A stretch of DNA of 64,000 bases from positions 131,286 through 195,285 of the forward strand of contig CAVUWG010000001.1 of NCBI GenBank assembly GCA_963745295.1. The letters run 5' to 3'. This document shows positions 11,880 through 61,043 of this stretch, one piece after another. Under the pieces are notes generated by a model. That model saw nothing but the letters and a program-made list of their open reading frames with translations, had not been told where the DNA came from and searched no databases. The position numbers were made by a program, and so were the translations under genes. Every line of letters begins with the position of its first letter. Position 1 is the stretch's first letter. Origin of the DNA: an uncultured Chloroflexia bacterium (lineage in GTDB: Bacteria > Chloroflexota > Limnocylindria > Limnocylindrales > CSP1-4).

Positions 11880-11936
11880 CCGGGGGTCAGGGCGCGTTCT
11901 CGTCCGGGCCGGCTCAGTCGGCTCGGGGGGAACGGA

Positions 11937-35999: not shown

Positions 36000-37515
36000 T
36001 CAGCGACCCTCGCCGGCCAGGACGGCCGGGATGGTCCGGACCATGATCTTGAGGTCCAGCCAGAGCGACCAGCGGTCGATGTAGTCGAGGTCGAGGCGCA
36101 CCCACCGGTCGAAGTCGGCCTCCCGGCGAGCCGCGACCTGCCACAGGCCGGTGATGCCGGGCTGCATCGAGAGGCGCCGGCGGTGCCAGATGTCGTAGTC
36201 GAGGACCTCGCTCGGCAGTGGCGGCCGTGGTCCGACCAGGCTCATCTCGCCGCGCAGCACGTTCCACAGCTGGGGCAGCTCGTCGATGCTGGTCCGGCGG
36301 AGCCAACCGCCCGTCCGGGTGAGGCGCGGATCGTCGGTCAGCTTGAAGGCCGGACCGCGGATCTCGTTGCGGCCCTCGAGCTCGACCAGTTGCTCCTCGG
36401 CGTCCGGGACCATCGTGCGGAACTTGACGACCCGGAACGGTCGCCCGTGCAGGCCGACGCGCTCCTGGCGGAAGAAGACCGGCGCTCCGTCCCGGAGGCG
36501 GATGACCAGGGCCACGAGCAGCAGGACCGGGCTCAGGACCACCAGCCCGACCAGCGCCAGAAGGACGTCGATCGCGCGCTTGGCGATCATCCCGAGCGTT
36601 CGGTCCGGGCCGTAGACGAGCGACAGGACGGCCATCCCCTCGATCTCCTCGATGCGGCCGCCGGGCAGCATCAGGCCGGGACCGGTCATCGGGATCCGCA
36701 CGACCCGGCCCTCGTCCTCGCACAGGCGCGCGATCGGCTCGACCATCGCTCGGTCCGTTGACCGACAGGCAGATCGCGACCTCGTCGACCACGCTCCCGT
36801 GGAGGACGCCCTCGATCTCGTGGAGGTCGCCGAGGACCGGACGCTCGGACGCGCCCGTCGTCGCCGCTCGCGCGATCCGCGGGGCCGGCCAGGTAGCCGA
36901 TCGGCTCGAGGCCGAGCTCGATGTGCCGCGCCATCAGGTCGGCGAACGTCTCGGCGGCCGGGTTCGCGCCCACGATGAGCATGTACCGGGTGTTGCGGCC
37001 GGCGGCTCCCGCATGCTGAGGAAGAGCGACGCGGATCGATGTTCCGGCTCGGCGATCGTCAGCAGCGCCTGCGAGGGGAAGAGCAGGACCAGGAACAGGC
37101 GGCTGACATTCGGGAGCTTGAACAGGAAGAGCGCGGTGAACACGACGACCGCGAGCAGCAGCACCGCGAACAGGACGTCGAGCGCCTCGCGTCGCCTGGA
37201 CCAGCGGACGCGCAGGCGGTACAGCCCCTGGATCCACAGGACCGCGACGAGCGAGATGCCGTAGAGCAGTGCCGCGAGCCAGCCGTCGATCCCCGCCGTG
37301 GCCCAGGTCGCCTGCCAGGCGTCGGTCCCGAAGCGGATCATCGACAGGCCGATGAACAGCGCGATCGCGGTGATCGCGTCGGCGAGCATCAGGGCGAGAT
37401 GCAGGGCCGCGGCGTGACGGCGGATCAGGTCCGAGTCCTCCACGAGCGCGTGAGTCGCATCGGATTGTACCGCCCACTCGAGCCGGTCCCGTCGGGTATC
37501 CGGGCCGGGGACCAT
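36000..37515 (-). pseudogene. WbaP-like polyprenyl-phosphate sugar phosphotransferase (initiating transferase), three apparent frameshifts
   Basis: The TM N-terminus runs from ATG 37515 in ORF 36934..37806. RYMLIVGANPAAETFADLMARHIELGLEPIGYLAGP is in ORF 36686..37477. PVLGDLHEIEGVLHGSVVDEVAICLSV is in ORF 35956..36792. The catalytic C-terminus is in ORF 36000..36746 (RPFRVVKFRTM...ELPQLWNVLRGEMSLVGPRP). The breaks lie at about 37005-37045, 36850-36880 and 36746-36760. Confidence 0.8.
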
Positions 37516-37558
37516 CGTACGGGTGTCCGTTCCGGGGAGGTCTGGTAGGGTCAAGGGC

Positions 37559-38732
37559 ATGGGGAAGATCGCGGCTGCCTGGGCCGCCATGTCATCCGCC
37601 GCCCGGGCCGTGGCGATCGGCGGTCTCGCGCTGCCGCTCATCCTGGTCCTCGCGGTGACCGCCGTCGCGGTCGGCGCGGCGCCGTCGCCGAGGGTCGGAT
37701 CCCGGTCCGACGCCGGCCCCGGTGGCCGCCCTGCCGACCGACGCACCGCTGAGCCCATCGCCCTCGCCGCTCGCGTTGCCGAGCGTGGCACCGTTCGCGA
37801 GCCCATCGGCCCAGCCGTCAGCGGCCGCGGTCGCCGACCCGTTGCTCGGCACCGACGGTCGCCTGACCGTGCTCCTGCTGGGATCCGACTATCGGCCGGC
37901 CCACCCGGGCAACCGGACCGACGCGATGATGGTCGTCTCCGTCGACCCGACGACCGGCCGATCCGGGGCGTTCAGCGTGCCGCGCGACATCGTCGACTTC
38001 CCGCTCCCGGGCCGAGGCAGCTACGCACCCCGGGTCAACGGCCTGTACCAGTACCTCCAGGCACGGACGAACCGCGGCGCCGCCAACACGATGGCGGCCT
38101 TCGAGCGCGCGTTCGGCATCGAGATCGACAACTTCGTCTTCATCGGCTTCAACGGCGTGCAGGAACTGGTCAGCGCGGTCGGCGGCGTCGATGTCCGGTT
38201 GCAGAAGTCGTACTACGACCCCTATTACTGGGTGAACGGCCACACGCGTGGCTGGGGCCTGCCGGCCGGCAAGAGCCATCTCAACGCCCAGCGGGCCCTG
38301 ATCTTCGCCCGCAGCCGGAAGGGCGACAGCGACTTCGGTCGCGCCCGCCGCCAGCAGCTGCTCGTCATGGCCGCATTCGACAAGGTGCGCAAGCGCGGCC
38401 TGGACGATCTTCCGAAGCTCCTTCGGGCCGCGCGGGACAGCGTCCGGACCGACCTGCCGCTCTCGCGGGCGAACGACCTGTTCAAGCTCTATCGCGAGGT
38501 CGACCTCAAGAAGGCCAAGCGGGCCGTCTTCGGGCCGAAGACCTTCGCGGTGCGGGCGCACGGCTACACCTACCACCTGGTCTACGCCAAGTGCAAGGCG
38601 TGGATCGCGAAGAACTTCCCGAAGAAGCGGCCGTACGGGACGTGGCCGGCCAAGACCGTGCCGGCGAGCCCGGTCACGCCCAGCCAGGCTCCGGCTGCAC
38701 CCGTGCCGACGGTGCTGTCGCCAGACTCGTAA
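37559..38732 (+). pseudogene. LCP family protein, copy 2, one apparent frameshift after the membrane anchor
   Basis: ATG 37559 encodes MGKIAAAWAAMSSAARAVAIGGLALPLILVLAVTAVAVGAAP (TM anchor) in the frame of ORF 37523..39025. The LCP domain is in ORF 37722..38732 (LTVLLLGSDYRPAHPGNRTDAMMVVSVDP...SRKGDSDFGRARRQQ). The break lies at about 37685-37700. Confidence 0.7.
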
Positions 38733-38751
38733 GGCCGCCTCGGCCCGATCG

Positions 38752-40648
38752 TCAGCCGTGCCAGCGTTGGCCGGCCAGCCCTGCCTCGTACTCGCGCCGC
38801 CGCTCCTGGACCGCCGCCAGCCCCGAAGTCTCCGCCGAGGCGACATCCCACCACACCCCGGCCGGCGGCAGGTTCACGTCCGGATCGGTCGGGACCACGA
38901 TGACGCTCGGGCCGGGGTGGGTGCGCGCCTCGTCCAGGGCCGCCAGGATCGCCGCCGGCGTCGTGGCCCGCGTGGCGTTGGCGCCAAGCCCGCGGGCCAC
39001 CGCCACGAGGTCGAGTTCGAGGTAGTCGCCGTCGAGGGCCGCCTCGCCGAGGGGGCCGGTCCGTCGCCGGAACTCGTTGCCGAAGCCCTCCCCGTTGCGC
39101 ATCAGCTGCAGCCGGCGGATGACCTGGAAGCCGTGGTTCTCGGCGATGACCACGGTCACCGCGAGCCCCTCCTGGAGCGCGGTGACCAGTTCGCCTGGTT
39201 GCATGAGGAACGTCCCGTCGCCGATCAGCGCGATCACCGCGCCATCCGGCTGGGCGAGCCGCACGCCGAGGGTCGCCGGCAGCTCGTAGCCCATGCACGA
39301 GAACCCGAACTCGAGGTGGCACGTGCGCCCGCCGGTGGCGTCCCAGACCTTGAGGAGGTCGCCTGGGGGCCCGCCGGCCGCGGCGATGATCGTGTCGCCG
39401 GGTCGCGCCGCCTCCTGCAGCACGCCGATCAGCTGTCCCTGGGTCATCGGGCCCGGATCGGCACCGCCTGACGCGGGCGCCGCCAGCGCGGCGGCGCGCA
39501 TCGGCAGCCAGGCCTCCTTGACCGCACGGGCGCGGGTCTCCCATGCCGGTCGCGGCCGGACGCCGGCCTCGCGCCCGGCGCTCGACAGGGCCTGCAACGC
39601 GCGCCGGGCGTCCGCGACGATCGGCACGGCGCCCTGCTTGCGCGCGTCGTGGTCGGTGACGTTGATCGAGGCGAAGCGGACGTCGGGATCCGCGAAGATC
39701 GACTGCGAGGCCGTGGCGAAGTCCGTCAGCCGCGTCCCGACATGCAACACGAGGTCGGCCTCCCCCGCGAGGGCGTTCGTCGCCGGGTTGCCCTCGAGGC
39801 CGATGCCGCCCATGCCCCACCAGGCATCGGTCGCGACCGCACCCTTGCCCGCGAACGTCTCCGCGACCGGGATGCCGAACTCGGCGGCGAGCTCGGCCAG
39901 GGCCGCCCCGGCGTCCGCGTAGATGGACACCCCCACCCGCGACGATCAGCGGCCGCTCGGCGGCGGCGAGCATCCGCGCCACCTCGGCGACGACCTCGGG
40001 ATCGGCCGCCGGCCGGGCGATCGCCCAGTCACGTGGGTCGAAGAAGGCCGCGGGGTAGTCATGGGCCTCGGCCTGGACGTCCTGGGGCAGCGCGAGCACG
40101 ACCGCGCCCATCTCGGACGGATTCGTCAGGACCCGCATCGCCTCCGGCAGCGCGCTGAGGAGCTGCTCCGGGCGGGTGATCCGGTCGAAGTAGCGCGCGA
40201 CGGGCCGGAAGGCGTCGTTGACGCTGATGTCGCCGGCCGAGGGGTGTTCGAGCTGCTGGAGGACCGGTCCCTGGCGGCGTGTCGCGTAGGTGTCGCCAGG
40301 CAGGAGGAGGACCGGCAGGCGGTTGATCGTCGCGAGGGCGGCGCCGGTGACCATGTTGGCGGCGCCCGGTCCGATCGAGGCCGTCACCGCGAGCAGCGCC
40401 CGGCGCCGTGACGCCTTCGCGTACGCCGTCGCCACGTGGACCAACGACTGCTCGTTGCGGCCCTGGATGTACGGCATCTCCGCACGGAACTCGTCGAGCG
40501 CCTGGCCGAGCCCAGCCACGTTGCCGTGGCCGAAGATCCCGAGCATCGCGGGGATCGACCGGCGACGCTCGCCGTCGGCGACCGTGTGCTGCTGGCCGAG
40601 GTAACGAACGACGGCCTGCGCCATCGTGAGTCGCACGGTCGTCGACAT
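38752..40648 (-). pseudogene. iolD: 3D-(3,5/4)-trihydroxycyclohexane-1,2-dione acylhydrolase (IolD, ThDP enzyme), one apparent frameshift
   Basis: The N-terminal ~235 aa are in ORF 38582..40648 (TVRLTMAQAVVRYLGQQ...IFGHGNVAGLGQAL...RYFDRITRPEQL). The remainder is in ORF 38752..39936 (...WWDVASAETS...). The break lies in the C5 run at 39930-39934. Confidence 0.8.
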
Positions 40649-40730
40649 CTCGATGTGATCCCTCCTGCTCGCCGGGTCGATGGCACCGCCGCCCGCGACA
40701 TCATCATCCCATCGGCCGCGCGCGGGCGAA

Positions 40731-40765
40731 TTCGAAAACGCCGAGCGGGGAACCTGCTCGGCGTT
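40731..40765 (-). terminator. rho-independent terminator downstream of the 40792..41751 gene
   Basis: A perfect 10-bp stem (aacgccgagc / gctcggcgtt, 9-nt loop) is followed on the minus strand by TTTTCGAATT. Confidence 0.7.
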
Positions 40766-40791
40766 CGCGTTGGAAAGGCGGAGGGAGTCGT

Positions 40792-41751
40792 CTAGAACGT
40801 GCCGGCGTGCACCTGGTTGGCGATGGTGCGCATCCAGCCGACCATCTGCGGGTCGCGTCGCTGGTCGCTCTGGTAGTTGCTATTGGCAAAGCTGTGGAAC
40901 GCGATGCCGGACACCTTCGCGTACGTGAAGCCGTCACGGACCTGCTTGCGGAGCTGCGCCTCCGTCGGACGCTGCTTCTTGTGGCAGGTGGGCGCGAGGT
41001 ACTTGTGCGTCTGGACCATCAGCCAGATCGGCGTGCCCGGGGTCTTGGCGTTGACGACGGACCGGACATTCTTGAAGTGCTTCGGGCCGGTCGTCTGGAC
41101 GTCGTAGCCGGACCGCGAACAGCCGTTGTTGTTCGTCTCGACCGGATACCAGTCGATGATGAGCACGTCGGCCTTGCCGGTGCCCCACAGGTTGCCCGAC
41201 TTGTTGAAATGCGGGATGTCACCGTAGATCGCGAGCACCGGGTGGTTCGCGTCGGCCTTCTTGTACGCCTTGTACAGCGAGCGCACTTCGGCGGACGTGA
41301 CGTGGTTCCAGGACGGCTCCTTGACGCTCAGGTAGCCGAAGAGCGCCGGATGGTTCTTGGCGACGTTGACCCACTTCGCGATCCGGGAGGGGTAGACCTT
41401 GCCGCCCGCCGAGACCGTGTCCGGGAAGTAGAAGACGACCTTCACGCCGCATGTCTGGGCGGCGTTCAGGTAGTTCCGGACGTTGTTGAGGCTCGAGGCG
41501 TTCTTGATCAGGTGCGTGAAGCCGCCGTTGCAGATCCCGCGCTTGTTCGCGACCAGGTCTTCGAGCGACACGTTCTGGAGCACCATCGGGGCCGCCGGCA
41601 TGGCCGCCCGGGTGCCCGCGGTCCCGGAGCCGACCGACACGGCACCGGCGCTGGCGGTCGCTGACCCGAGGGTCGCGGCGACCAGCATGGCGAGGGCGGC
41701 GGGTGCCACGTATCGGGCGAGGCGGCGTGTTCGCTTGGCGGGAAGATTCAT
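40792..41751 (-). CDS. secreted hypothetical protein, weakly glycoside-hydrolase (TIM-barrel, clan GH-A)-like; compositionally atypical
   Basis: ORF 40792..41850. The likely start is ATG 41751 (MNLPAKRTRRLARYVAPAALAMLVAATLGSATASA signal peptide). It is K/N/Y-rich. A hand-counted 100-nt sample near 41200 gives about 64% GC. The motifs 'SVKEPSW' and 'DWYPVE' loosely recall the GH-A acid/base and nucleophile strands. Confidence 0.55.
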   Translation of the reverse strand: MNLPAKRTRRLARYVAPAALAMLVAATLGSATASAGAVSVGSGTAGTRAAMPAAPMVLQNVSLEDLVANKRGICNGGFTHLIKNASSLNNVRNYLNAAQTCGVKVVFYFPDTVSAGGKVYPSRIAKWVNVAKNHPALFGYLSVKEPSWNHVTSAEVRSLYKAYKKADANHPVLAIYGDIPHFNKSGNLWGTGKADVLIIDWYPVETNNNGCSRSGYDVQTTGPKHFKNVRSVVNAKTPGTPIWLMVQTHKYLAPTCHKKQRPTEAQLRKQVRDGFTYAKVSGIAFHSFANSNYQSDQRRDPQMVGWMRTIANQVHAGTF

Positions 41752-41948
41752 GCGATGTTCGTTACTCCGGAGTTCGTCGAGGGGTGCGTCACTCCAGAGG
41801 AGGATGCCAGCGCCGACGACGCTCCGGGTATGCCGCTGTTGGGCCATCACCGAGGGTACGGGGGTCAGGTGCAGGCTCGCACCATCAACCTCGGAACGTC
41901 AAACCGCAGCGGGCCTCCTGCCTCGCCCTGCGGAACACGTTCGATCCC

Positions 41949-43212
41949 TCAGGCGCGCCACGTCAGGGCCGCCCGGACGTCCCGCCAGAGGCCGCCGAGA
42001 TCCCCGGCAGCGAGCAGGCGCCACGCGACGACGAGCGCGAGCAGGACCGCCAGCCCGTTGACCCCGAGAGCGTGGGTCCGGGCCACGAAGACGATGGCGA
42101 GCGACCCGGCGACCACATCGCCGATCCCGCGTCGTCGCCGCGCGATGAGGGCGCCGAGCCGCTCGATCCCGACCCCGAGGAACGCGAAGAGGGCGACGCC
42201 GCCGGGCCCGAAGTTCGCCCACGCCTCGCCGATGATCCCGGGTGCCAGGTAGCCGGGCGGGTCCTGGTCGGGGAACACGCGGGGAAAGATCCAGTAGCCG
42301 AGATTCGGGATGTCGGGGCGCCCGACGATCGGGCCGAGGCGTCGCGCCCAGGTCAGGCCGCCGTAGTACGGCTGCTCGTCGGGGATGACGTCCTGGAGCG
42401 CCTCGAGCGTCCGTGGCTGGATGAGGGCGACACGATTGACCGTCCGCTCGATCGCGAACGCGAGCTCGCGCCCTTGCGCCTGGTCGTAGGCCCGCAGGAT
42501 CTGGACGCCGCCGAACAGGAGGACGCCGATCACGGCCAGCCCGGCGAGTCGGCGCCACGGCAACCGCCAGCCCGCCAGCCCGATGCCGACCAGCAGCACC
42601 GCGGCCAGCTCCGCCGCGAGGTAGCGACTGGCGAGAGCCAGCTCGAAGGCCAGCAGGCCGACGATGATCGCGAACGACCCGAGACGCCAGGCACGCGACC
42701 GCCGACCGGCCGTCAGGAGCAGCCCGAGCGCCAGGGCGGGGAGGGTCACGCGGAGCACCTGGACCGGGAGCCCGGTCAGTTCGCTCCGGGCGCCGGTGAT
42801 GTCGCCGACGAGGGCCGGCAGGCCCACCCGCGCGATGGTCGGCAGGATGAGCAACAGGGCGACGACCCCGAGACCGACCGCGACGGCGGGCCGCCACGAG
42901 CCCGGATCCTGGTCACTCGGAGTCGGCTCGATCGACCGCCGCCGCATCCCTCGCCCGCCCACGTGCGATCCGGTCGCTGACGGCGACGGCGAGCGCCAGG
43001 GCCAGCGTGCACGCCGCCACGTACAGCGCCGGGCCAGTCCGGTCGTCGAGGGCCAGCACCAGGCTGCCGACGCCGAAGAAGACCGCATCGAGCAGCAGCC
43101 ACGCGACGACCGGATGCCAGATACCCAGTGCCGTCCGGCGGACCGCCGGGAGCACGAGGGCCGCAGCCGCGCCGAAGGCGGCGACGACGGCCAGCGCGGC
43201 GAGGATGCTCAT
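41949..43212 (-). pseudogene. oligosaccharide repeat-unit (Wzy-like) polymerase, probably one frameshift (alternatively two overlapping genes)
   Basis: ORF 42913..43212 (99 aa, 3 TM) and ORF 41949..43088 together give a ~430-aa polytopic protein. The second carries YLAPGIIGEAWANFGPGGVALFAFLG, a Wzy-family-like motif. The frames switch near 42950. An ATG at 42947 would instead allow a separate gene overlapping by 35 nt. Confidence 0.5.
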
Positions 43213-44285
43213 GCCGGTCCCTCGGCCGGCTCGGCCGGTTCTGGCGGCTCGACCGGCCCGGCAGGCTCTTCGGGCCCGGCCTCGAGGGCTTGCTCCGCGA
43301 CGTGCGCCGCGGCGTCCGCGCCTCCGGCCGGCAGGCTCGCCGAGAGGTGTGCGTAGGCGGCCACGCCCAGCAGGCCGAGTGGCAACGTCGAGACGATCCG
43401 GTACCCGAAGACGATGGCCACGGCCTCAGCCGACGGCACCCCGGACGCGGTCAGCAGACCCGCCACCACCAGGTCCGTCGAGCCGAGGCCGAACGGCAGC
43501 AGCGAGACGACCCCGGCCACGATCCCGAGGCCGAGGGCCCCCCAGGCCACGGCCGGGTCCAGCGTGACACCGAAGGCCGCAGCGACCAACAGCAGCTGTG
43601 CGGTGTATGCCGCGAACACGACGGCCGTCCAGGAAGCGAACTCAAGCGCTCGCCCCCGGTCCCTGAGCAGCAGGGCGACGGTGTCGTCGACACGGGCGAG
43701 GGCGCCACCGGCCGCGAGCCATCGGTCGCGTCCCAGCAGGCGACCCATCGGCAGCCTCCGGATCAGCGCGGTCGGCCGTCCACCGGCACGGTAGAAGACG
43801 TTCGGCAGGACGACGATCGCGAACAGCCCCAGGATCGTCACGACGGGCCTCCAGTCCAGCCACCAGGCGGCCCACAGCAGGGCGGCGCTGGCGCCCAGGT
43901 AGGCGATCGCGACGACGCGCTCGATGAGGACGACGGCCGCACCGATCCGATAGTCGACGCCGTGGTGGGCGCGGAGCAGGTAGAGGCGCGCCAGCTCGCC
44001 CATCGATCCGGGCGTCACGTTGTTGATCGTGTTCGCGAATGCGGTCATCGGGATGAGCGGCCGGACCGGCACGGGCCGCCGCGCCGCCGCCAGCAGGCCA
44101 GCCGACCGGAACGCCCATCCCGCGACGATCACCACGTTCAGGCCAAGGGCGATGGCGATGGCCCGAACGTCGGCCGAGCCGAGGCGATCGCCCAGCTCCC
44201 ACGGCCGGGCGCGCCACGCCACGAGCGCCAGCAACGCGACCGAGATCGTGCCCCAGACCAACGGATGGCGAAGGGCGCGGATCAT
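43209..44285 (-). CDS. flippase-like / lysylphosphatidylglycerol-synthase-TM-region (UPF0104) family membrane protein
   Basis: ORF 43209..44300. ATG 44285 makes an ATGA overlap with the upstream stop. It shows the UPF0104 pattern (FANTINNVTPGSMGELARLYLL...GLGSTDLV). Confidence 0.7.
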   Translation of the reverse strand: MIRALRHPLVWGTISVALLALVAWRARPWELGDRLGSADVRAIAIALGLNVVIVAGWAFRSAGLLAAARRPVPVRPLIPMTAFANTINNVTPGSMGELARLYLLRAHHGVDYRIGAAVVLIERVVAIAYLGASAALLWAAWWLDWRPVVTILGLFAIVVLPNVFYRAGGRPTALIRRLPMGRLLGRDRWLAAGGALARVDDTVALLLRDRGRALEFASWTAVVFAAYTAQLLLVAAAFGVTLDPAVAWGALGLGIVAGVVSLLPFGLGSTDLVVAGLLTASGVPSAEAVAIVFGYRIVSTLPLGLLGVAAYAHLSASLPAGGADAAAHVAEQALEAGPEEPAGPVEPPEPAEPAEGPA

Positions 44286-46476
44286 CGAGCCCGACCCCAC
44301 ACGATCGCGTCCTCGGTGTCGGTCAGGGTCTGCCAGCCGGGTGGCGGGCCGTCGTCGGGAACGTAGCCCGTCACCGACTGGACCGCGATCCGGTCGGCAC
44401 CTTCGAGCACCAGGGGCTGTCCGGGCTCGAGGGTCACGGTCGATCGCACGACCACGAAATCGCTGCTGCCGGTGTACGGCACGCTGATCTCGTCCACGAG
44501 GCGATCGCCCGCGAGGACCCGGAGCCGTCGCGCCGCGGGCGTGCCTCCCGGGCCCAGCGAGCCGGCGGTCAAGGGGGCCGGCGCCACGACGCCGTCGCCC
44601 GATTCGCTGTCACCCGCGCCGGCCGGACCCGCCTCGCCTGCGATGGCGCCGATCCGCGGCAGGACCCGGATCTCGAGCTCGATCGGGACCTCCGTGCTCG
44701 CGAGCGGGAACGCCAGGCGCGATCCGGGCTCCAGCACGACCGCGTCCCAGCCATTGCCCTCCAGGACTCGTGTCGACCCGGTCGTGGCCCCGGGCGCTGC
44801 GGCGGCCAGCGCCGCGACGCGGCTGATGCGCCCCACCGCGTCACCACGGCGTCCGAGCACGATCCGGTCCGCCCCGAACGTGTCGGCGACCGCGGTCAGC
44901 GCGGCGACGTCGCCGGTCAGGGCGCTCGCCAGGGTCCGCCGACGCTCGTCCTGGCCGACATCGGTGAAGACCGCCGGGTCGAACGCCGAGTTTCGCGTAG
45001 CCCGGTGGCTTGACCGCCACGACCGAGGCGCCGGTCTCGTACCAGACCAGCGACGACCAATCCTCGTAGCTCAGGATCGTCGGCCGCGGCCCCGACACGG
45101 CCAGCAGGTCGGACATGTCCGGGACGCGGTCGGGGATGAGTTGGAGGTGGGCGTAGCGCGGGACCGTCCAGATGGTCCACAGCAGCCGCTCCGTGGCGAC
45201 CGTCGTGGGCACCGCGGCAACCAGTACCGTGGCCACGAGGCCGGCCGCGACGAACCGCTGGCGTTCGGGCCAGCGCCGTCGCGCCGACCTCCACCAGCGC
45301 CGCCAGGCCGATCGCCGCCAGGATCAGCCCCGGTTGGCTCGACACCATCCACATCCGCTGCGGTCGTAGGGCGTCCTCGAGCGGCCATGAGGGTTGGTAG
45401 AGGACCGCGAGCGTGAAGGGGATCGAGCCACCAGGGCACCAGCAGGAGCGGACCGACCAGCGGCCGTGGGGCCCAGCCTGCCGGGTCGTCGTCGGGTGCG
45501 GGTCCGCTCGGCCGGCGCAGGAAGGACAGGGCGACGCCGACGCCCACGACCGTCAGCGGCAGGATCAGGCCGAACTGGATCGGGTACTGCCAGAACCCGA
45601 TCCGCACCGGGAGCAGGTCCTCCGAGGAGTCGATGGACACGCCGCCGTTCGCCCGGATCGTCCCGGCGAGGTAGGCCAGCCACGGGGTGACGATGAGCGG
45701 CGGCGGTCGCCCCGGTCACGACCAGGGCCAGGAGGAGGCGACGCCATCGCCCGGGCTCGCGCAGTCCGATCACGCACGACCAGCACCGCCAGGCTGAGCG
45801 GGATCGGGATCAGCAACTGGATCTGGAACAGGCCGCAGACGCCGAGCATGGCGCCCGCGAGCACGGCCCAGGCGAGCGCGCGCGACTCGCCGTCGGTCGC
45901 CCGCAGGAACGCGAGCATCGCGAACGGCAGGAGCCCGAACACGAGGTCGCGCGGGATAGATCGGGTAGAACGCCTGCCCGACCATCGACATCGAGTTGAC
46001 CCACAGACGGTCGGCGGACAGGTCCAGCCCGCCGGCGAACGCGGTGAGGATCGCCGCGACCAGCGCCACGTCCCGCCGTCCGGTCAGCCGTCGGGTGAGG
46101 AGGTAGGCGCCGAGCGGGATGACCGGCAGCCAGAGCAGGCCGAGCAGGGCCGTCGCGGTCGGCGACGTCGGTCCCGAGCAGCCTGACGCACCCCGGCAAG
46201 CAGCAGATGGAACCCCGGCGGGTAGTAGGCCGGCAGACCGGCATACGGACCCTCGGCGGGGAACGTGCCGAGCAGGATGGTGTTCGTCAGGCCCCAGTGA
46301 TAGAGCAGGTCACCGCGAACGTAGAACGGCGCCAGGGCGCGGGCGCCATAGACGGCGATCGCGACCAGGAGCACGAGCCCGAGCCACCGTTCCACTCGAG
46401 GGATCGCGGCCAGGCGCTGGCGTACACTTCGGACCGATCCCCCGACGCGGCGGCCGATCGCCAGGTCGCTGGTCAC
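44282..46476 (-). pseudogene. large GT-C-fold (ArnT/PMT-like) membrane glycosyltransferase, at least 7 frameshifts
   Basis: The start is GTG 46476 (MTSDLAIG...ERWLGLVLLVAIAVYGA...YYPPGFHLLLAG). Plausible sequence then hops between ORFs 45770..46069, 45565..45942, 45324..45773, 45071..45640, 44917..45354, 44841..45236 and 44282..44860. The breaks lie near 46170-46195, 45950, 45773, 45695, 45421, 45280 and 44990. Confidence 0.65.
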
Positions 46477-46506
46477 GCGCCCTGTTCGAGGTAGGACCGA
46501 CGCTTC

Positions 46507-48612
46507 ATGGATCCCATCGCGCTCGTTGCGTCCGCCGTCTGGGCGACGATGGTATCCATCCTCCTGTTCCTGTTGCCCGGTGCCGCGCTCGGACCGATGG
46601 TCTTGCCGGGCGCCTCATCGCCGCTGGCTCGGGTGGGTCGCGCGGCCGGCGTCAGTCTACTGGCGACCCTGCTCCTGTGCACCATCCTGGCACGGCTCGG
46701 CTGGCTCACCGTCCCGGTGCTCCTGCTCTCGCTGGTCGGGGCTCACCCTGATCGGCGTCGCGTGGCGTCGGCCACGCCTGGGACGCCCGTCTGACCGACG
46801 CCGCCGGTGGTGGCTCGCGGCCGCGGCCGGCGTCCTGCTCGCCGGCGCGCTCGTCGTGGTGCCGTCGGCGGCCGCGCATGTGGCCCGACCTGCTGCCGAA
46901 GAGCTCGACGACCTGGTACTACGCGAACCTCGCCCAGTCGATGGCCGACCTCGGCGCCATCCCGGCGCAGCTCCCCGAGTGGGGGGCGCTTCGCCCGTTC
47001 CAGACCGATTACCTGCCCGTCACGGCGCACACCGCGGCCGCGCTGCTCCTGCTGCCCGGCGACCTGCTGCCGGACATGGAGATCTATCGCCTGGCCACGC
47101 TCGTGCTCGGCGTGCTGTTCGCCGTCCTGTTGTTCCGTCGCTGGGTGTCCGGCTGGGCGGCACTGCTCGGCGCGATCCTGCTGCTGGCGACCGTCCGGCT
47201 CGAGCAGAAGTTCGACGGGTATCGCCCCGAGACCGTCGCGCTGGTGCTGGCCCTGTTCACCCTGTGGGTCGCCGACCGGGCCTTCACCGAACGGAACCCA
47301 CGAGCGCTGGTGGTCGCACTCCTCGGCTCCGGGCTGGTCTTCCTCAGCCACGCCGAGGTGTTCCTGATCCTGGCGCCAGCTCTCGCTGGGCATCGCAGTC
47401 GCTCGGACGGTGGTCGCGCCGGGCGGACACGGCACGCGGCTGGGCCTGCGAACGGTCGCGTGGCGCCGAGCGCTCGCGACGCCGGCCCTGGCCTTCCTCG
47501 TGATCGTGGGCGGAGCGGTCCTCGGCGGGGCCGCGGGCTGGGCGCTGACCGGCGAGAGCCGTGTCCTCGGCTACGTGATCGGCGAGGCGACGCCCCCTGC
47601 CACCGACGTCGCGCGTGGCCGGCCGGGCGAGATCCCGGCCGGCTGGACCTTCACCGACGATCCGACGTGGGACTTCTACACCGCATCGGTGGCACCCGCG
47701 TTGAACGGGCTTCCGCCGCCGGACCAGTTCACCGATGCGCTGCTGCTGCCGCGTTCGCTGATCCACATCTGGCCCGGGCTCGACGGCCGTGTTCCATCCG
47801 GATTCGTGGTGTTGTTCGCGCTGACGATCGCGCCGGCGTTCGCCTGGCCATTCCTCGATGCGCGTCGACGCCGGTTCGTGCTCGGCTGGGCGCTGTTCGG
47901 GGTCGGCCTGATCGCCGGTTGCCTGCTGCTCTACGCGGTCGCCGGAACGTACGTCCCCGAACGGACGCCCGGGCGACGACTCATGCCATACCTGTTGCTC
48001 CTGCCCGTGGTCGCGATGACGGTCAGCCTGTGGGTGATCGGACGGTTGCTCGCCCCGGGCTGGCGGGCCCTGCTCCCCGGCCGAGGGCGCGCGCTGGCCG
48101 CCGGACTCGCGCTCGCACTGCTCACCGCGGGTGCCGTGTCCGCCTCGCCTCTCGCGGTCGCCGGCGCGGATGACGGCGATGCGGCCCTCAGCCAGGCCGG
48201 CTACGACGCCTACCAGTGGATCGATGCCAACCTGCCGCCCGATGCGCGGCTCCTGACCAACGCCTACACGGATGGCGCGGTCGCGGCCGTCGCCCATCGG
48301 GTCGGGATCGTCGACGGACGGGCGGTCTACCTGGAGAACCCGACCTTCCTCGCCGAATCGACGGCGCTCTGCCTCGGTGCGCGGGTGGTCTTCGGCACAC
48401 CGGCCGCGCCTGGGGCGGCGACCTACCTCGAGCGCGAGCGGGTCACGCACCTGCTGGTCTCGACCGTCGGTCCCAACGGCACCGATCTCGGCGGGTACCT
48501 CCTGTTCGAGACGGACGTTCCCGGTCTGCGGGCCGATCCGGCCCTCCGCCTCGTTCGCTCGTTCGCGGGCGACCGCCTGCTGCTGTTCGAGGTCACCGGG
48601 ACGGCGGCGTGA
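46507..48612 (+). pseudogene. second large polytopic GT-C-like membrane protein, three frameshifts
   Basis: Sequence runs through ORF 46507..46794, then the frame of 46526..47503 (LTLIGVAWRRPRLG...), then 46878..48173 (MWPDLLPKSSTTWYYANLAQ...), then 47410..48612. The breaks lie near 46742, 46875 and 47377. The family assignment is tentative. Confidence 0.55.
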
Positions 48613-48648
48613 TCTAGCCGGCCCCTCGGGCTGGCTAGACTGTCGCGG

Positions 48649-50338
48649 ATGGCTCAAGAGGACGTGGCGACGCTCGATCGCCGGATGGGCGGCATCCCAG
48701 CCTTCTACGGCGCCATCTGGTCGGAGGCGCGGGCCGCGGCGACCCGCTGGCATCTCGCGATCGTCATCGAGATCGCGATGATCGTGGCCTGGTTCGCCAT
48801 CCGCTCCACTGCGGGCGTCGACGGACGGGCCTATCTCCTGTGGGTGATCGCGGCCGGCGTCCTGGCGCTCGTCGCGCCGCTGTCCGGCCTCGTCGTGTTC
48901 GTCGCGACCTCGGTCTTCTTCGAGCCCGACACCATCGCCTCGCATCGTCCCGCTGCGCGTGTGGGTCCTGGTCCCGCTCGCTGCCGGCGTGCTGATCCGG
49001 ATCGCGGCCGACCGCCTCCGCTGGCGACCGGCGCTGGCCATCTGGCTCGCCCTGCTGCTCGTGCTCGGGACGGCGCTCGGCGTCGTGAACACGTTCGACC
49101 GCTTCCCCGACGAGATCGCGTGGCGCGCCGCCCGGTCCTGGTTCAACAACATGGCAGGTCCGGTCATCCTCCTGATCGCGGCCGCGTGGACGGCGCGCGG
49201 CGGATCCATGCGGGTGCTCGTCGTGGCGTGCGGGGTCGCCGTGGTCAGCGCGACGGTCGCGATCGCCGAGCACGCGTCGCCGGGGCTGTCTCGGGGGGCC
49301 GGCTCGATTGGGTCGGGTTCTGGAAGGACTTCGGGGCTCGCCTCGGCGGCACGATGCCCTCGCCGAATGCCCTGTCCGCCCAGCTGATCGTGCCGACCGC
49401 GGTGCTGGGTGGCCGCCCTGCTCCTTGCGCGCGACATCCGGATCAAGGCGCTCGCGCTCATCGGGCTCGTGCCGTTGGTCATCGCTCACTACCTGACGTT
49501 CAGCCGGGCGCCGCTGCTCGGGCCGTATGTGTTCGCCGTGGTGGTCGCGTGGCGGTTCCGACGGGCGCTCGGGATCGCGGTGCTCGTGGTGGGCTCGCGG
49601 CGGGAGCCGTGCTGCTGCCCGGCTACCTGCAACTCCGGGCACAGACCTCGGGCACGCCGACCATTCCCGGGACCGTCCTGGTCGCCTCGGACGAGTATCG
49701 CTTCCAGGCCTGGCGTTCGGCGATCGCGATGTGGCAGGACGAACCCCTCATCGGGCAGGGGTACCTCGCGTATCGGCAGCTCGGGCCGGAGTACGGCGAC
49801 CAGCTCCTGGGATCGCCCCACAACGAGTGGCTGCGCCTGTTCGCCGAGGAAGGCACCGTCGTCGGCCTGATCGGGATCGCCTTCGTGCTCGCGACGACCT
49901 GGACCCTCACCCGGGTCAAGGGCTGGCTCGGTACCGGGCTCCTGGCCGGGATTCCTCGCATATGTCGTGGCGGCAACGTTCAACAATCCGTTCCTCTTCA
50001 TCCGGGTCAGCGCCGTCGCGTTCGCGATGATCGGCGTCGGCCTGGCGTTGGCCGAGCGTGCCCGGGCATCGACCCTTGAAGAAGCGCCGCTGACCGAAGC
50101 GGTCGACTTCGAAGCGATTTCCGACACCGCCACCGAGCCGACCGAGGCCGCCCCCGAACCGACCCAGGCCGAAGCCGGGGCCGACGAACCGACCCAGACC
50201 GACGCCACCCCCGAACCGAACCAGGCCGAAGCTGCGCCCGAGTCGACCGACGAACCGACCCAGACCGAAGCCGTGACCGACGAACCGACCCAGGCCGAAG
50301 CCGGCGCCGCCGAGGAGCCTGGCGAACCGCCCGCCTAG
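48649..50338 (+). pseudogene. O-antigen ligase/polymerase-like (Wzy_C) membrane protein with an acidic repeat tail, five frameshifts
   Basis: Plausible sequence alternates between the frame of ORF 48649..50079 and the frame shared by ORFs 48959..49387, 49409..49870 and 49967..50338. The Wzy_C-like motif is SPHNEWLRLFAEEG. The breaks lie near 48940, 49293-49298 (a G6 run), 49405, 49595 and 49948. Confidence 0.65.
50131..50335 (+). repeat. degenerate tandem coding repeat (EPTQ[AT]EA acidic units)
   Basis: Repeated 'gacgaaccgacccag(a/g)ccga(a/c)gcc' units encode TEPTEAAPEPTQAEAGADEPTQTDATPEPNQAEAAPESTDEPTQTEAVTDEPTQAEAG. Confidence 0.7.
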
Positions 50339-50371
50339 CCGAGCCCTGCGTCGGCGCTACACTGGCCGAGC

Positions 50372-51432
50372 ATGCCGATCAGCCTCCTGCGCCTCGTCGG
50401 ACTGGTCTTCGCCATCGTGCTCGTGCTGGTGGCGATCGGGCGGCTCCGACGCCGCGGCGCCGGCAGCCGCGTCCCGGCGACCGGACTGCTCGCCGTCGGG
50501 CTCGGCCTCTTCGCGGTCGCGCTGTTCCCGGACCTGGTCCGTCCCATCCAGGACGTGCTCGGCCTGGCGGGCGAGCCGCTCGGGCGACTGGTCACCGTCC
50601 TCGTCGATCTCGGTCGTCGATCGCCTATGTCCTGCTGTTCTACGCCCTGGGCCGAGCCGATCGCGCCAACCAGCGGGTCAGCCGGCTCGTGCGGGCGCTG
50701 TCGGCCGCCCAGCTCGAGGCCGCCCGAGGCGAGACGATGGGGCGGCGTCCTCGTCTGCATCCCGGCGCTCGACGAGGCCGAGAGCCTGCCGGCCGTCCTC
50801 GCCGAGGTCCCGGCGGAGGTCGCCGGCCTCGTCGACCCACGTCCTGGTCATCGACGACGGCTCGCGCGACGGGACGGCCGACGTCGCCCGGGCGAAGGGC
50901 GCCCACGTCGTCAGCCACCCGGTCAACAGCGGCCAGGGCGCCGCGCTCCAGACCGGCTACCTGGTCGCCGAGCGGCTCGGCGTCGAGGTCGTCGTGACGC
51001 TCGACGCCGACGGCCAGCACGATCCGGCGCAGATGGAGCGCCTGGTCGAGCCGATCGTCCGCGACGAGGCGGACTTCGTGGTCGGCTCGCGACGGATGGC
51101 GCGAGGGCGAGAGCGCGGACGCGTCGAAGGCGCGCGACGCCGGGATCACGGTCTACACGCGGCTCATCAACCTGCATCGGCGGCACCGAGGTCAGCGACA
51201 TCGCCAACGGCTACCGCGCGATCCGGGCCTCGCGCCTGGCCGAGATCGCGTTCACCGAGGACCAGTTCCACAACCCGGAGCTGCTGCTGGGCGCGGCGCG
51301 CGCCGGCCTGCGGGTCGTCGACGTGCCGGTCACCATCCGCCGCCGGACGGCCGGCGATCATCGAAGAAGGGCACCGACCTGCGCTACGGGCTCGGGTTCC
51401 TGCGGGTGATGCTCAAGACCTGGCTGCGCTGA
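50372..51432 (+). pseudogene. DUF2304-like membrane segment followed by a family-2 glycosyltransferase (polyprenyl-phosphate sugar synthase-like), about six frameshifts
   Basis: The pieces are MPISLLRLVGLVFAIVLVLVAIGRL... (frame of 50372) and ...IAYVLLFYALGRADRANQRVSRLVRAL (frame of 50689). Then come VLVCIPALDEAESLPAVL (50372 frame) and VLVIDDGSRDGT...TLDADGQHDP (frame of 50994). The last three are ...GITVYTRLINL, IGGTEVSDIANGYRAIRASRL and SKKGTDLRYGLGFLRVMLKTWLR (stop 51430-51432). The breaks lie near 50610, 50740, 50830, 51100, 51173 and 51357. Whether DUF2304 and GT2 are one gene or two is unresolved. Confidence 0.6.
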
Positions 51433-51434
51433 AC

Positions 51435-52569
51435 GTGGCCGGACCAGCCGCCATCGCCCGGACACAGGAGGTGCCCGAGGCCCCGATCCCATTCCACCTC
51501 CCGGCGATGCCAGACGTTGAGGCGTTCCTCGAGGACGCACGGGCGATCGTGCGATCCGGGCGCTTGAGCGAAGGGCCCTACGTCCATCGTCTCGAGGAGC
51601 GCCTGGGATCGTGGCTCGGCGACCGTCCGGTCGTCGCGGTGTCGAACGCATCGGACGGTCTCGTCGCGGCCCTCGTCGTCCTCGCCAGGCCCGGCTGCGA
51701 GGTCATCATCCCGGGCTTCACGTTCTATGCCACGTGGCAGGCGGTCGTCTGGGCCGGGATGACGCCGGTCATCGTGGACGTCACCGACGACGGCCTGATC
51801 GATCCCGACGCTGTCGCGGCGGCCATCACGCCCCAGACCGGGGCGATCCTGGCGGTGCACCTTACTGGTTCACTTGCACCGATGCGACCTCTGCGGATGC
51901 TCGCCGACCGAAATGGCCTCGCCCTGATCGCTGACGCCGCCCACGCGATCGGGGCCCGCGACGGCGATCTCGCTACTGGTTCGATGGGCGATGCGGAGGT
52001 CGTCAGCATCGGTGCGACCAAGCAGGTCGCTGCGGGTGAAGGCGGCGCCGTCACCGTCCGCGACCCGGACAAGGTCTCCGGCATGCGGCGCTTCAAGCTC
52101 CAAGGTCGGCAAGCCGGCGCGATGGACGTCCTGGGAGCGGGGATGAACCTGCGCCTCGCGGAGCTCACCGCGGCGCTCGCCCTTCGCCAGCTCGACGGCC
52201 TCAGCGAGCAACTCGCGCGTCGTCGAGCGATCCACGAGCGCTACGCGACGGCCGTCGCGGACCTGCCGCTCAGGCTGTCCGGCACCCGATCCGGGACGAC
52301 TTCAGCGCATAAGGATCAGCTCGTCTGGCCGGACGACCCCGCCGACCGGGCGCGCCTGCGACGAGCGCTCGCCGAGGCCGGGATCGAGACCAAGCGCTAC
52401 TACGAGGTCGCGATCCCGGACCTCACGGCATTCTCGGGTCGGGTCGAATTCGGCGGACCGCAGCCGCGCGCTCGCCGCGCGCTCGTTCGCGATCCCGATC
52501 CACGCGCGACTGGAGGACGACGACGTCGAGCGGGTCATCACGGCCATCGTCGGCTTCTACCGGAACTAG
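51435..52569 (+). pseudogene. DegT/DnrJ/EryC1/StrS-family sugar aminotransferase, one frameshift near the 3' end
   Basis: This lies inside ORF 50994..53600 (start GTG 51435 or 51471), with ...IPFHLPAMPDVEAFLEDARAIVRSGRLSEGPYV.... The true C-terminus RSRALAARSFAIPIHARLEDDDVERVITAIVGFYRN* is in another frame (TAG 52567-52569). The break lies at about 52452-52462. Confidence 0.7.
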
Positions 52570-52574
52570 TCGCG

Positions 52575-53600: not shown

Positions 53601-54229
53601 GTACACAGCGACCACGGCTGATCCTCGCCGGGGCTGGGCGATTCGCGGAGGAGATCACGGATATCGCGGCGGACGCAGGGCTGGATGTCGCCGCCTGGAT
53701 CGAAGGGCTCGATCCGGAACGGGCCGACCCTGGGCATCAGCCCCCGATCGTCTGGGTAGCAGACCAAAGGTCGTTCGCCCCCGGAACGCCCGTCGTGCCG
53801 GCGATCGGTTCGCCACGACGTCGAGCGCTGATCGAACGGCTCGTGTCAGAGGGGCGAGAGCTGGCGACGCTCATCCATCCGTCGGCGGTCGTGGCGCGTT
53901 CCGCGAGCATCGGTCCTGGCTGTGTGCTGTTCGCCGGCGTCATCGTCGGGGCTCGGACCACGATCGGCCTCGGAACCATCATCAACCGCGGCGCTCTCAT
54001 CGGTCATCACACCGCCATCGGCTCGCATGTCTTCGTGGGTCCTGGGGCGAACATCGCGGGCGGCGTGACCATCGGCGACGAGTCGTACATCGCGATGGCT
54101 GCGGTCGTCCGCGACGATCGAACGGTCGGCGCTCGAGCGACGGTCGGAGCCGGAGCCGTCGTGGTCGGTGACGTTCCGGCAGACACGACCGTGGTCGGGC
54201 TTCCGGCCCGCCCTCTGGCTCTCACGTGA
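53597..54229 (+). CDS. NeuD/PglB/VioB-family hexapeptide-repeat sugar N/O-acetyltransferase
   Basis: ORF 53597..54229 (ATGA overlap) has an N-terminal Rossmann-like domain and a C-terminal left-handed beta-helix (GPGCVLFAGVIVGARTTIGLGTIINRGALIGHHTAIGSHVFVGPGANIAGGVTIG). Confidence 0.8.
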   Translation: MSTQRPRLILAGAGRFAEEITDIAADAGLDVAAWIEGLDPERADPGHQPPIVWVADQRSFAPGTPVVPAIGSPRRRALIERLVSEGRELATLIHPSAVVARSASIGPGCVLFAGVIVGARTTIGLGTIINRGALIGHHTAIGSHVFVGPGANIAGGVTIGDESYIAMAAVVRDDRTVGARATVGAGAVVVGDVPADTTVVGLPARPLALT

Positions 54230-54267
54230 TCGGCGGCTCTTGAAGTCGGGATCGTGGAACCCCAGCC

Positions 54268-56935: not shown

Positions 56936-56955
56936 CGGATCCGGTCAACGGGTCG

Positions 56956-58350: not shown

Positions 58351-58438
58351 CGACGGACCTATGCTGCTGCCTGGGGCCTGAGGAGTAGCCGGAACCCGGC
58401 GTGGGCGGACGACGGCCAGTTTACGTCACGCTCGGTGA

Positions 58439-60992: not shown

Positions 60993-61043
60993 CTGCTGCG
61001 ACTCAACGCATCCTGTGATCGCCGCCGCGCCAGCGAGTCCGCG

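What the first reader, a model, noticed from the sequence alone, without database searches (positions are those of the whole stretch)
36000..51432. Frameshift hot-zone: at least 27 frame breaks in 15 kb of envelope-glycan genes
I followed the frame that carries family-typical sequence through each gene and counted the frame changes needed:
- WbaP-like transferase: 3
- LCP copy 2: 1
- iolD: 1
- Wzy-like polymerase: about 1
- GT-C-like gene 1: at least 7
- GT-C-like gene 2: 3
- O-antigen-ligase-like gene: 5
- DUF2304/GT2 module: about 6

That is at least 27 breaks in about 15.4 kb. The first 36 kb has about 7 and the last 12.6 kb has 2. Three genes inside the zone are intact: the 40792..41751 secreted protein, the UPF0104 protein, and LCP copy 1 just upstream.

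Two readings are possible. (a) An ancestral high-GC glycan locus (initiating transferase, polyprenyl-P-sugar GT2, GT-C transferases, ligase) is decaying, perhaps after its function was replaced by the adjacent lower-GC locus. (b) The consensus is locally poor, for example low coverage or strain heterogeneity in a variable surface-glycan region, or unpolished long reads. Some breaks sit in homopolymer or simple runs (C5 at 39930, G6 at 49293, cccc near 45421), which fits either slippage or basecalling error.
Basis: partly seen in the sequence, partly recalled or inferred. Interest (0 to 1): 0.75.

Follow-up and report, generated by a model that had tools for sequence, protein, structure and literature searches.

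The report
Assembly-error frameshifts in variable glycan locus
The cluster of broken reading frames is really in this sequence, but it is almost certainly a consensus error made where a long-read metagenome assembler merged reads from two or more co-occurring strains that differ in a variable cell-envelope sugar gene cluster, not a decaying set of genes.

Summary
Against a near-identical contig from another sample (A, ERZ25039494 contig_16284), where every gene of the locus is intact, the window has 46 single-base indels in 36000-51432 (2.98/kb). The flanks have 0.17/kb and 0.08/kb (binomial p = 4e-19).

The cause is most likely technical:
- 40 of the 46 are +1 insertions, and none lies in a homopolymer.
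- Half lie within 1 nt of a site where two sister strains differ.
- At 12 of 38 insertion columns the window carries both strain alleles side by side (p = 6e-9).
- Indels per inter-strain SNP are the same in flanks (0.049) and zone (0.058).
- With the indels removed, the five worst genes translate full length with no internal stop.
- Substitutions are mostly synonymous (145:85).
- A third assembly (B) is even more broken over the same interval.

The close relatives are Nanopore-only Microflora Danica MAGs of an uncultured Chloroflexota lineage (Flye plus one Medaka round).

What is real is a strain-variable envelope-glycan cassette, 4-15% divergent between strains that are about 99.7% identical outside it. 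Interest is low, apart from the quality-control lesson.

The parts
36561..51358 (.). Strain-polymorphic block: the interval where sister contigs A and B differ by 4-15% (0-0.5% outside it). It holds 45 of the window's 46 zone indels; the other is A's own at 38943.
34714..35991 (+). LCP (LytR_cpsA_psr) copy 1, intact; 0 indels and 2 substitutions against A
36000..37515 (-). WbaP-like initiating phosphoglycosyl transferase (CoA_binding_3 + Bac_transf; 502 aa in A). It has 9 single-base indels (8 insertions, 1 deletion), all at 36755-37051, in the N-terminal and central part.
37559..38732 (+). LCP copy 2 (390 aa in A); 1 insertion at 37697, a C/G both-allele site
38755..40648 (-). TPP-dependent enzyme (iolD/acetolactate-synthase-like). 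One window-private insertion at 39923. At 38943 the window and B agree with the L004 protein, and A carries the extra base.
40792..41751 (-). Secreted 319-aa protein with no Pfam match; intact
41949..43218 (-). Membrane protein (331 aa as called in A, 422 aa in L004). Three insertions at 42915-42924 are net in frame, at a site where B has a longer insert. A frame change near 42980-43020 relative to L004 is shared by the window and A.
43209..44285 (-). UPF0104 / LPG_synthase_TM membrane protein, 358 aa; intact
44282..46476 (-). DUF6541 GT-C-like membrane protein (728 aa in A); 10 indels and 57 substitutions
46507..48612 (+). PMT_2 (GT-C fold) glycosyltransferase (700 aa in A); 3 insertions
48649..50338 (+). 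Wzy_C (O-antigen ligase/polymerase-like) protein (562 aa in A); 7 indels
50372..51432 (+). DUF2304 + GT2 polyprenyl-phosphate glycosyltransferase-like protein (350 aa in A). It has 8 insertions and 44 substitutions, 36 of them synonymous. Many of these alleles match neither A nor B, which points to a third haplotype.
51420..52569 (+). DegT aminotransferase (382 aa in A). One insertion at 52449 inside a GAATC site shifts its C-terminus into the frame of the next gene, producing the long 50994-53600 ORF.

Best explanation
The frameshift hot zone is a consensus artefact of a long-read (most likely Nanopore-only) metagenome assembly.

What is real: the interval 36.5-51.4 kb is a strain-variable cell-envelope glycan cassette. 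It encodes an initiating phosphoglycosyl transferase, LCP ligases, two GT-C-fold transferases, a Wzy_C protein, a DUF2304-GT2 protein and a UPF0104 membrane protein. At least two or three homologous alleles, 4-15% divergent, exist in strains that are otherwise about 99.6-99.9% identical.

What went wrong (inferred): in the sample that gave the window, reads from more than one allele were collapsed onto one contig. The consensus and polishing step then produced a fine mosaic of alleles. At many polymorphic sites it kept both alleles next to each other, which reads as a +1 insertion. Each such insertion breaks the reading frame. The underlying genes of each strain are intact and functional.

Shown here:
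- The indels are clustered and private to this assembly.
- They are located at polymorphic sites.
- They show the both-allele signature.
- The same genes are intact in a near-identical contig.

Inferred:
- The window itself comes from a Nanopore Flye/Medaka assembly.
- The reads are a mixture of strains.
For: 1. Contig A is 99.39% identical over window 12286-63600, and every gene of the locus is called intact in it.
2. 46 of 51 indels against A lie in 36000-51432, at 2.98/kb versus 0.17 and 0.08/kb in the flanks, p = 4e-19.
3. 40 are insertions and 6 are deletions. All are 1 nt and none extends a run of 2 or more bases.
4. At 12 of 38 insertion columns A and B differ by a SNP and the window carries both alleles in tandem. 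The chance rate is 3.6% per site, p = 6e-9. The flank insertion at 26819 shows the same pattern against L003.
5. 50% of zone indels lie within 1 nt of an A/B SNP, against 16% for random positions (p < 0.0005). The median distance to the nearest window-versus-A substitution is 8.5 nt against 46 nt.
6. Indels per A/B SNP are 0.049 in the flanks and 0.058 in the zone, so the hot zone is what the SNP density predicts.
7. At informative sites the window is a fine mosaic: 822 A alleles, 155 B alleles, 72 private, in 179 runs over 15 kb.
8. Substitutions against A are 145 synonymous to 85 non-synonymous, where about 28% synonymous is expected at random. After the indels are deleted, the five worst genes are full-length ORFs with no internal stop and full-length Pfam matches.
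9. Assembly B, from another sample, is even more fragmented over exactly the same interval (18 indels/kb against the window) and clean outside it.
10. Window-private indels in the flanks hit housekeeping genes: a CobT-like gene at 7739, an aminotransferase at 10645, homoserine dehydrogenase at 16637 and acetyl-CoA carboxylase carboxyltransferase at 26819. This shows a general low level of consensus error.
11. Related contigs are titled as Microflora Danica MAGs. That project assembled Nanopore reads with Flye --meta --nano-hq and one round of Medaka, without short-read polishing, and reports microdiversity as a limiting factor (PMC12313526).
12. Logan assemblies of three other public sequencing runs carry gene products identical to A's UPF0104 protein and to the GT1_2 protein shared by A and the window, next to a DegT call of A's length (382 aa).
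Against: No reads were available, so the mixture of strains in the source sample is inferred and not observed.

The window's own provenance (Nanopore, Microflora Danica) is inferred from its near-identical relatives. No record for it was seen.

18 of 38 insertions show neither the both-allele signature with B nor sharing with B. They may involve alleles of strains not sampled here, or they may have another cause.

Eight insertions are shared by the window and B. This could reflect a recurrent artefact, or a real difference from A.

The corrected GT2 protein has 5 residues seen in no database relative, and no exact intact match was found. The window's allele there is therefore not independently confirmed as intact.

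A itself has at least one break of its own (38943) and shares another with the window (about 43000), so A is not a perfect reference.
Confidence: 0.87

Rival explanations
1. Genuine pseudogenisation: the high-GC glycan cassette is being lost in this strain through accumulated frameshift mutations, perhaps because the adjacent lower-GC nonulosonic-acid/Wzy locus took over its role.
For: Frameshifts are confined to one functional locus, and eight of its genes are hit. The same locus is also fragmented in assembly B and in some related MAGs. Surface-glycan loci are known to be inactivated by frameshifts in some lineages, for example the cryptic O-antigen cluster of Yersinia pestis (my own knowledge).
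Against: - There is no internal stop codon in five genes covering about 8.5 kb once the 1-nt indels are removed.
- Substitutions are biased towards synonymous changes.
- The insertion:deletion ratio is 40:6, whereas bacterial mutation is generally thought to be biased towards deletion (my own knowledge).
- The indel:substitution ratio is about 1:5.
- Indels coincide with inter-strain SNPs and carry both alleles.
- A 99.4%-identical contig has every gene intact.
- B is broken at different positions, so real decay would need parallel massive decay in two near-identical lineages.
- The same kind of indel hits essential genes in the flanks.
Confidence: 0.05
2. The artefact is real but has a different cause: locally low coverage or base-modification-dependent basecalling errors, without any mixture of strains.
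For: Four indels (7739, 17442, 40731, 52449) add a T or A inside GAATC/GATTC (GANTC) sites, crude p about 0.004. This suggests modification-linked miscalls for a minority of sites. The Nanopore R10.4 study reports near-finished genomes at about 40-fold coverage without short-read polishing (PMC9262707).
Against: Motif-linked errors should occur genome-wide and not in one 15-kb block. The window has 132 GANTC sites, and only 4 indels fit that pattern. Low coverage alone does not predict both alleles in tandem, the fine A/B mosaic, or the constant indel-per-SNP ratio.
Confidence: 0.06
3. A real recombinant mosaic: the window strain acquired many short tracts from a B-like allele by homologous recombination, and the indels arose biologically at the tract junctions.
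For: B-type alleles in the window are more clustered than random (runs test z = -9.9). Indels lie near allele switches.
Against: This would need about 90 separate B-type patches in 15 kb and none in the 48 kb of flanks. To my knowledge, no recombination or repair process is known to leave both alleles of a mismatch in tandem. The resulting frameshifts would inactivate eight genes, yet the substitutions still show purifying selection.
Confidence: 0.02

Closest known systems
Frameshift errors in long-read (Nanopore) assemblies and MAGs, as measured by IDEEL-type truncated-protein tests (Sereika et al. 2022, PMC9262707)
   Same: Single-base indels in the consensus fragment the gene calls. The assemblies are Nanopore-only with no short-read polishing. 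The errors depend on coverage and microdiversity.
   Different: The classic errors are described as indels in homopolymers. Here none of the indels is in a homopolymer. 87% are insertions, and they sit at inter-strain SNPs, often with both alleles retained. They are also concentrated about 20- to 30-fold in one strain-variable locus instead of being spread over the genome.
Hypervariable surface-polysaccharide loci flanked by conserved genes (O-antigen and capsule loci of Enterobacteria; my own knowledge)
   Same: There is a sharply bounded block of high divergence (4-15%) between strains that are nearly identical elsewhere. It encodes an initiating transferase, glycosyltransferases and Wzy-type proteins.
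   Different: The alleles here keep the same gene content and order and differ by sequence only, whereas O-antigen loci often swap whole gene sets. The organism is an uncultured Chloroflexota lineage. The locus is LCP/GT-C-rich, more like actinobacterial wall-glycopolymer clusters.
Cryptic O-antigen cluster of Yersinia pestis, inactivated by several frameshifts (Skurnik et al. 2000; my own knowledge)
   Same: Several genes of one glycan locus are interrupted by small frameshifting indels.
   Different: In Y. pestis the lesions are few, fixed and shared by all isolates. Here there are 45 lesions private to one assembly. They are absent from a 99.4%-identical contig, biased towards insertion and tied to polymorphic sites.

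Membership tests
Decaying (pseudogenised) gene cluster | Relaxed selection: substitutions spread evenly over codon positions, and nonsense mutations present | tested here: not met
   145 synonymous to 85 non-synonymous substitutions, where about 28% synonymous is expected at random. No internal stop in five indel-corrected genes.
Decaying (pseudogenised) gene cluster | Lesions shared by close relatives of the same lineage | tested here: not met
   Contig A (99.4% identical) has all genes intact. Only 8 insertions and 1 deletion are shared with B.
Decaying (pseudogenised) gene cluster | Mutation spectrum typical of bacteria: deletions at least as common as insertions, and indels far rarer than substitutions | tested here: not met
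   40 insertions to 6 deletions. 46 indels to 220 substitutions.
Consensus artefact from collapsed strain haplotypes in a long-read metagenome assembly | Indels private to one assembly and absent from near-identical assemblies | tested here: met
Consensus artefact from collapsed strain haplotypes in a long-read metagenome assembly | Indels located at inter-strain polymorphic sites, with density proportional to SNP density | tested here: met
   50% lie within 1 nt of an A/B SNP against 16% at random. Indel/SNP ratio is 0.049 in the flanks and 0.058 in the zone.
Consensus artefact from collapsed strain haplotypes in a long-read metagenome assembly | Both alleles of a SNP present in tandem at the insertion | tested here: met
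   12 of 38 insertion columns, p = 6e-9. Examples: 37697, 41816, 44988, 45286, 45952.
Consensus artefact from collapsed strain haplotypes in a long-read metagenome assembly | Reads of the source sample form two or more haplotypes over the region | not testable with these tools
   No read data are available. DNA of the Logan contigs was not retrievable.
Phase-variable contingency locus (slipped-strand mispairing) | Indels occur in homopolymers or short tandem repeats | tested here: not met
27 of 38 inserted bases are not adjacent to the same base, and the other 11 adjoin only one identical base, so none extends a run of 2 or more.
LCP-linked envelope glycopolymer / O-antigen-like biosynthesis cluster (gene content) | Initiating polyprenyl-phosphate sugar-phosphate transferase, LCP ligase(s), glycosyltransferases and a Wzy_C-type protein in one cluster | tested here: met
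   Pfam matches to Bac_transf + CoA_binding_3, LytR_cpsA_psr (twice), PMT_2, DUF6541, Wzy_C, DUF2304 + Glycos_transf_2 and LPG_synthase_TM. The glycan product and its function were not tested.

The most novel reading that the evidence does not exclude
The frameshifts are real. On this reading a strain-variable envelope-glycan cassette in an uncultured Chloroflexota lineage is being inactivated independently and massively in two near-identical populations (the window and B). The mechanism would be an insertion-biased mutational process acting at sites of inter-strain mismatch, for example an error-prone resolution of heteroduplex DNA after recombination between divergent alleles.
Probability: 0.04. 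Interest if true: 0.6.

Novelty: not a real feature. Interest (0 to 1): 0.15.

Why it matters
As biology it matters little, because the genes are almost certainly intact in the living cells.

As quality control it is useful in three ways:
- Nanopore-only MAGs can carry 20- to 30-fold local excesses of frameshifts exactly where strains differ, which means in surface-glycan and other hypervariable loci.
- These errors are non-homopolymer insertions. Homopolymer-aware correction would not target them, and they could be mistaken for pseudogenes in studies of genome decay or glycan diversity.
- The both-alleles-in-tandem signature, and a constant indel-per-SNP ratio, are simple read-free diagnostics when a sister assembly exists.

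The real finding underneath is ordinary but worth noting. Co-occurring, nearly identical Chloroflexota strains carry 4-15% divergent alleles of one LCP/GT-C glycan cassette. It lies next to an almost invariant lower-GC nonulosonic-acid locus.

Tried and rejected
- Exact-product look-ups failed for four proteins: the secreted protein, the UPF0104 protein (as a window reference and as P0001) and FabG. The window's own contig is not retrievable from the position index. The zone of contig A was reached instead through FabH, a cluster member (P0121), GT1_2 and SurE.
- I searched for an intact database protein identical to the indel-corrected GT2. None was found. The best match was A's protein with 8 differences, and 5 window residues are seen in no relative. 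This test was not decisive.
- A paper search for the run and analysis accessions found nothing.
- tblastn as a frameshift-aware counter undercounts, because gapped HSPs bridge short out-of-frame stretches and the two LCP paralogues cross-match. I used the DNA alignment to A for the counts instead.
- Homopolymer slippage is rejected.
- A GANTC-linked modification error is rejected as the main cause and kept as a minor component, with 4 sites.
- Phase variation and programmed frameshifting are rejected. There are no repeats at the sites, there are dozens of sites, and the sites are not conserved in relatives.
Full report
**What the window is**

The window is 72% GC with very high third-position GC. 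Exact-protein look-ups found near-identical contigs in three ENA metagenome assemblies. Two matter most:
- A is ERZ25039494 contig_16284, 1.03 Mb.
- B is ERZ25039591 contig_115692, 323 kb.

Overlapping loci from A cover window 3216-63600 (L010, L002, L006, L007, L009). A is 99.39% identical to the window over 12286-63600, and B is 97.87% identical.

More distant syntenic relatives are titled 'MAG: uncultured Chloroflexia bacterium isolate MFDxxxxx'. These are Microflora Danica long-read MAGs. That project used Nanopore reads, Flye --meta --nano-hq and one round of Medaka, with no short-read polishing (PMC12313526). That the window comes from the same kind of assembly is an inference. The only trace of its own record is a 196,834-bp contig held in NCBI and ENA.

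**Checking the observation**

A GC3-based frame tracker shows many same-strand frame switches in 36.0-37.7, 44.3-46.2 and 48.7-51.4 kb. In A every gene of the locus is called intact:
- WbaP-like, 502 aa
- LCP2, 390 aa
- TPP enzyme, 688 aa
- secreted protein, 319 aa
- hypothetical membrane protein, 331 aa
- UPF0104, 358 aa
- DUF6541, 728 aa
- PMT_2, 700 aa
- Wzy_C, 562 aa
- DUF2304+GT2, 350 aa
- DegT, 382 aa

Aligned to A, window indel density is as follows:

| Interval | Indels | Per kb |
|---|---|---|
| 36000-51432 | 46 (40 insertions, 6 deletions) | 2.98 |
| 12286-35999 | 4 | 0.17 |
| 3216-12285 | 2 | – |
| 51433-63600 | 1 | 0.08 |

The binomial p is 4e-19 for the 12.3-63.6 kb comparison. 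The one wrong detail is the homopolymer suggestion.

**What the zone is**

Substitutions rise along with the indels: 14.3/kb in the zone against 1.6 and 0.33/kb in the flanks. These substitutions are real allelic differences and not noise. 146 of 230 are at third codon positions. 145 are synonymous and 85 are not, where about 28% synonymous would be expected at random.

A and B differ by 4-15% between 36.56 and 51.36 kb and by 0-0.5% outside that interval. The zone is therefore a sharply bounded, strain-variable allele block. It encodes an envelope-glycan cassette: Bac_transf initiating transferase, two LCP proteins, two GT-C-like proteins, Wzy_C, DUF2304-GT2, UPF0104, a TPP enzyme and a secreted protein.

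**Why the indels are an artefact**

1. *Spectrum.* 40 insertions to 6 deletions, all 1 nt. 27 of 38 inserted bases are not even adjacent to an identical base.
2. *Location.* Half of the zone indels lie within 1 nt of an A/B SNP, against 16% for random positions (p < 0.0005). The median distance to the nearest window-versus-A substitution is 8.5 nt against 46 nt at random.
3. *Both alleles in tandem.* At 12 of 38 insertion columns A and B differ by a SNP and the window carries the A allele and the B allele side by side. One example is 41816, where A has GCCG-C-GACG, B has GCCG-A-GACG and the window has GCCG-AC-GACG. Other examples are 37697, 44988, 45286, 45425, 45773 and 45952. The chance rate is 3.6% per site, p = 6e-9. 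The flank insertion at 26819 shows the same pattern against L003.
4. *Dose.* Window indels per A/B SNP are 0.049 in the flanks and 0.058 in the zone. The hot zone is what a constant per-SNP error rate predicts.
5. *Mosaic.* At informative sites the window alternates between A alleles (822), B alleles (155) and private alleles (72), in 179 runs over 15 kb. This is far too fine for real recombination confined to this block.
6. *No decay signature.* With the 1-nt indels removed, WbaP, DUF6541, PMT_2, Wzy_C and GT2 translate full length without one internal stop and give full-length Pfam matches.
7. *Independent assemblies.* A is intact. B, from another sample, is even more fragmented (18 indels/kb against the window) over exactly the same interval and clean outside it.
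8. *Background errors.* Window-private indels in the flanks hit housekeeping genes: CobT-like at 7739, an aminotransferase at 10645, homoserine dehydrogenase at 16637 and acetyl-CoA carboxylase carboxyltransferase at 26819. The assembly therefore has a general low error level of the same kind.
9. *Other read sets.* Logan assemblies of three other public sequencing runs carry gene products identical to A's UPF0104 protein and to the GT1_2 protein shared by A and the window, next to a DegT call of A's length (382 aa).

**Most likely mechanism**

Reads from two or more alleles of the cassette were collapsed into one contig. The consensus and polishing step switched between alleles, and at some SNPs it emitted both bases. 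This is inference: no reads could be examined.

**Limits and loose ends**

- A is not perfect. At 38943 A has an extra G that the window, B and the L004 protein do not support, which explains A's 688-aa TPP call overlapping LCP2 by 150 nt. The flank differences at 17442 and 21917 are also A's.
- The window and A share a frame change near 42980-43020 relative to the 422-aa L004 orthologue. It could be real.
- Eighteen insertions have no explanation from B's alleles, and 8 are shared with B.
- In the GT2 gene the window carries many alleles that are neither A nor B (36 synonymous and 8 non-synonymous differences from A). No identical intact protein exists in the database. A third haplotype is likely but not shown.
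- Four indels add a T or A inside GAATC/GATTC sites. This hints at a small modification-linked Nanopore component.

**Comparison with known things**

This is the familiar problem of frameshifted genes in long-read MAGs. It differs in a way worth recording: the errors are non-homopolymer insertions tied to strain SNPs, concentrated in a hypervariable locus.

The real biology is a variable glycan cassette between conserved flanks. It resembles O-antigen and capsule loci in population structure, and actinobacterial LCP/GT-C wall-glycopolymer clusters in gene content. It is not a decaying locus of the Yersinia pestis O-antigen type (my own knowledge), because the defining features of decay were tested and not met.

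**Verdict**

Reading (b) is supported and reading (a) is rejected, with about 0.87 confidence in the strain-collapse artefact. Novelty: not a real feature. Interest is low (0.15) apart from the quality-control lesson.

Noticed in passing
window 51420-63610: The adjacent lower-GC (66-69%) locus is a nonulosonic-acid-type glycan cluster. It encodes DegT, a GT1-like protein, a hexapeptide transferase, a methyltransferase, Wzy_C, a Polysacc_synt_3 flippase, an acyltransferase, NeuB+SAF and a GNAT/GT28-like protein. It is almost invariant between the window, A and B (0.33 substitutions/kb against A), in sharp contrast to the hypervariable high-GC cassette next to it.
   Followed up: partly
window 38943 (contig A; L007 13632-15698): The 'clean' contig A has its own single-base insertion in the TPP-enzyme gene. 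This gives a 688-aa call that overlaps LCP2 by 150 nt. The window, B and the 650-aa L004 orthologue agree with each other there.
   Followed up: yes
window about 42980-43020, in the gene 41949-43218 (-): Relative to the 422-aa L004 orthologue, both the window and A change frame between residues 64 and 73. A's gene is called at only 331 aa. This shared break could be a real frameshift, a different start, or a recurrent error.
   Followed up: partly
window 7739, 17442, 40731, 52449: Four indels between assemblies add a T or A inside GAATC/GATTC (GANTC) sites, three of them creating GAATTC. In each case one assembly is the odd one out. Crude enrichment p is about 0.004. This suggests modification-linked Nanopore miscalls at GANTC.
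   Followed up: partly
L012, L018, L021 versus L016 (loci around the UPF0104 orthologue): Other Microflora Danica Nanopore MAGs of related species also show several frame changes in the same glycan genes (for example DUF6541 5, Wzy_C 4 and GT2 2 in L021). A short-read co-assembly MAG (L016, k141 contig) shows none. Whether those MAGs are equally noisy elsewhere was not tested.
   Followed up: partly
L004 12285-14120, compared with window 41752-41948: The relative L004 has an extra 611-aa PMT_2 (GT-C) gene between the 422-aa membrane protein and the secreted protein. The window and A have only about 200 nt of intergenic DNA there.
   Followed up: no
window 7739, 10645, 16637, 26819: Window-private single-base insertions break housekeeping genes outside the zone: a CobT-like DBI_PRT/His_Phos_1 gene, a class I/II aminotransferase, homoserine dehydrogenase and acetyl-CoA carboxylase carboxyltransferase. 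At 26819 the window carries both the A allele and the L003 allele.
   Followed up: yes
window 1-1777 (- strand): The GC3 frame tracker switches frame twice (at 813 and 1060) inside what looks like one minus-strand gene. No sister contig was fetched for 1-3215, so this was not checked.
   Followed up: no
window 50500-51400: In the DUF2304+GT2 gene most window differences from A are alleles found in neither A nor B. They include residues A66, A117, V145 and D327, which differ from all eight close database proteins compared. This suggests a third haplotype, or local mis-consensus near the indels.
   Followed up: partly
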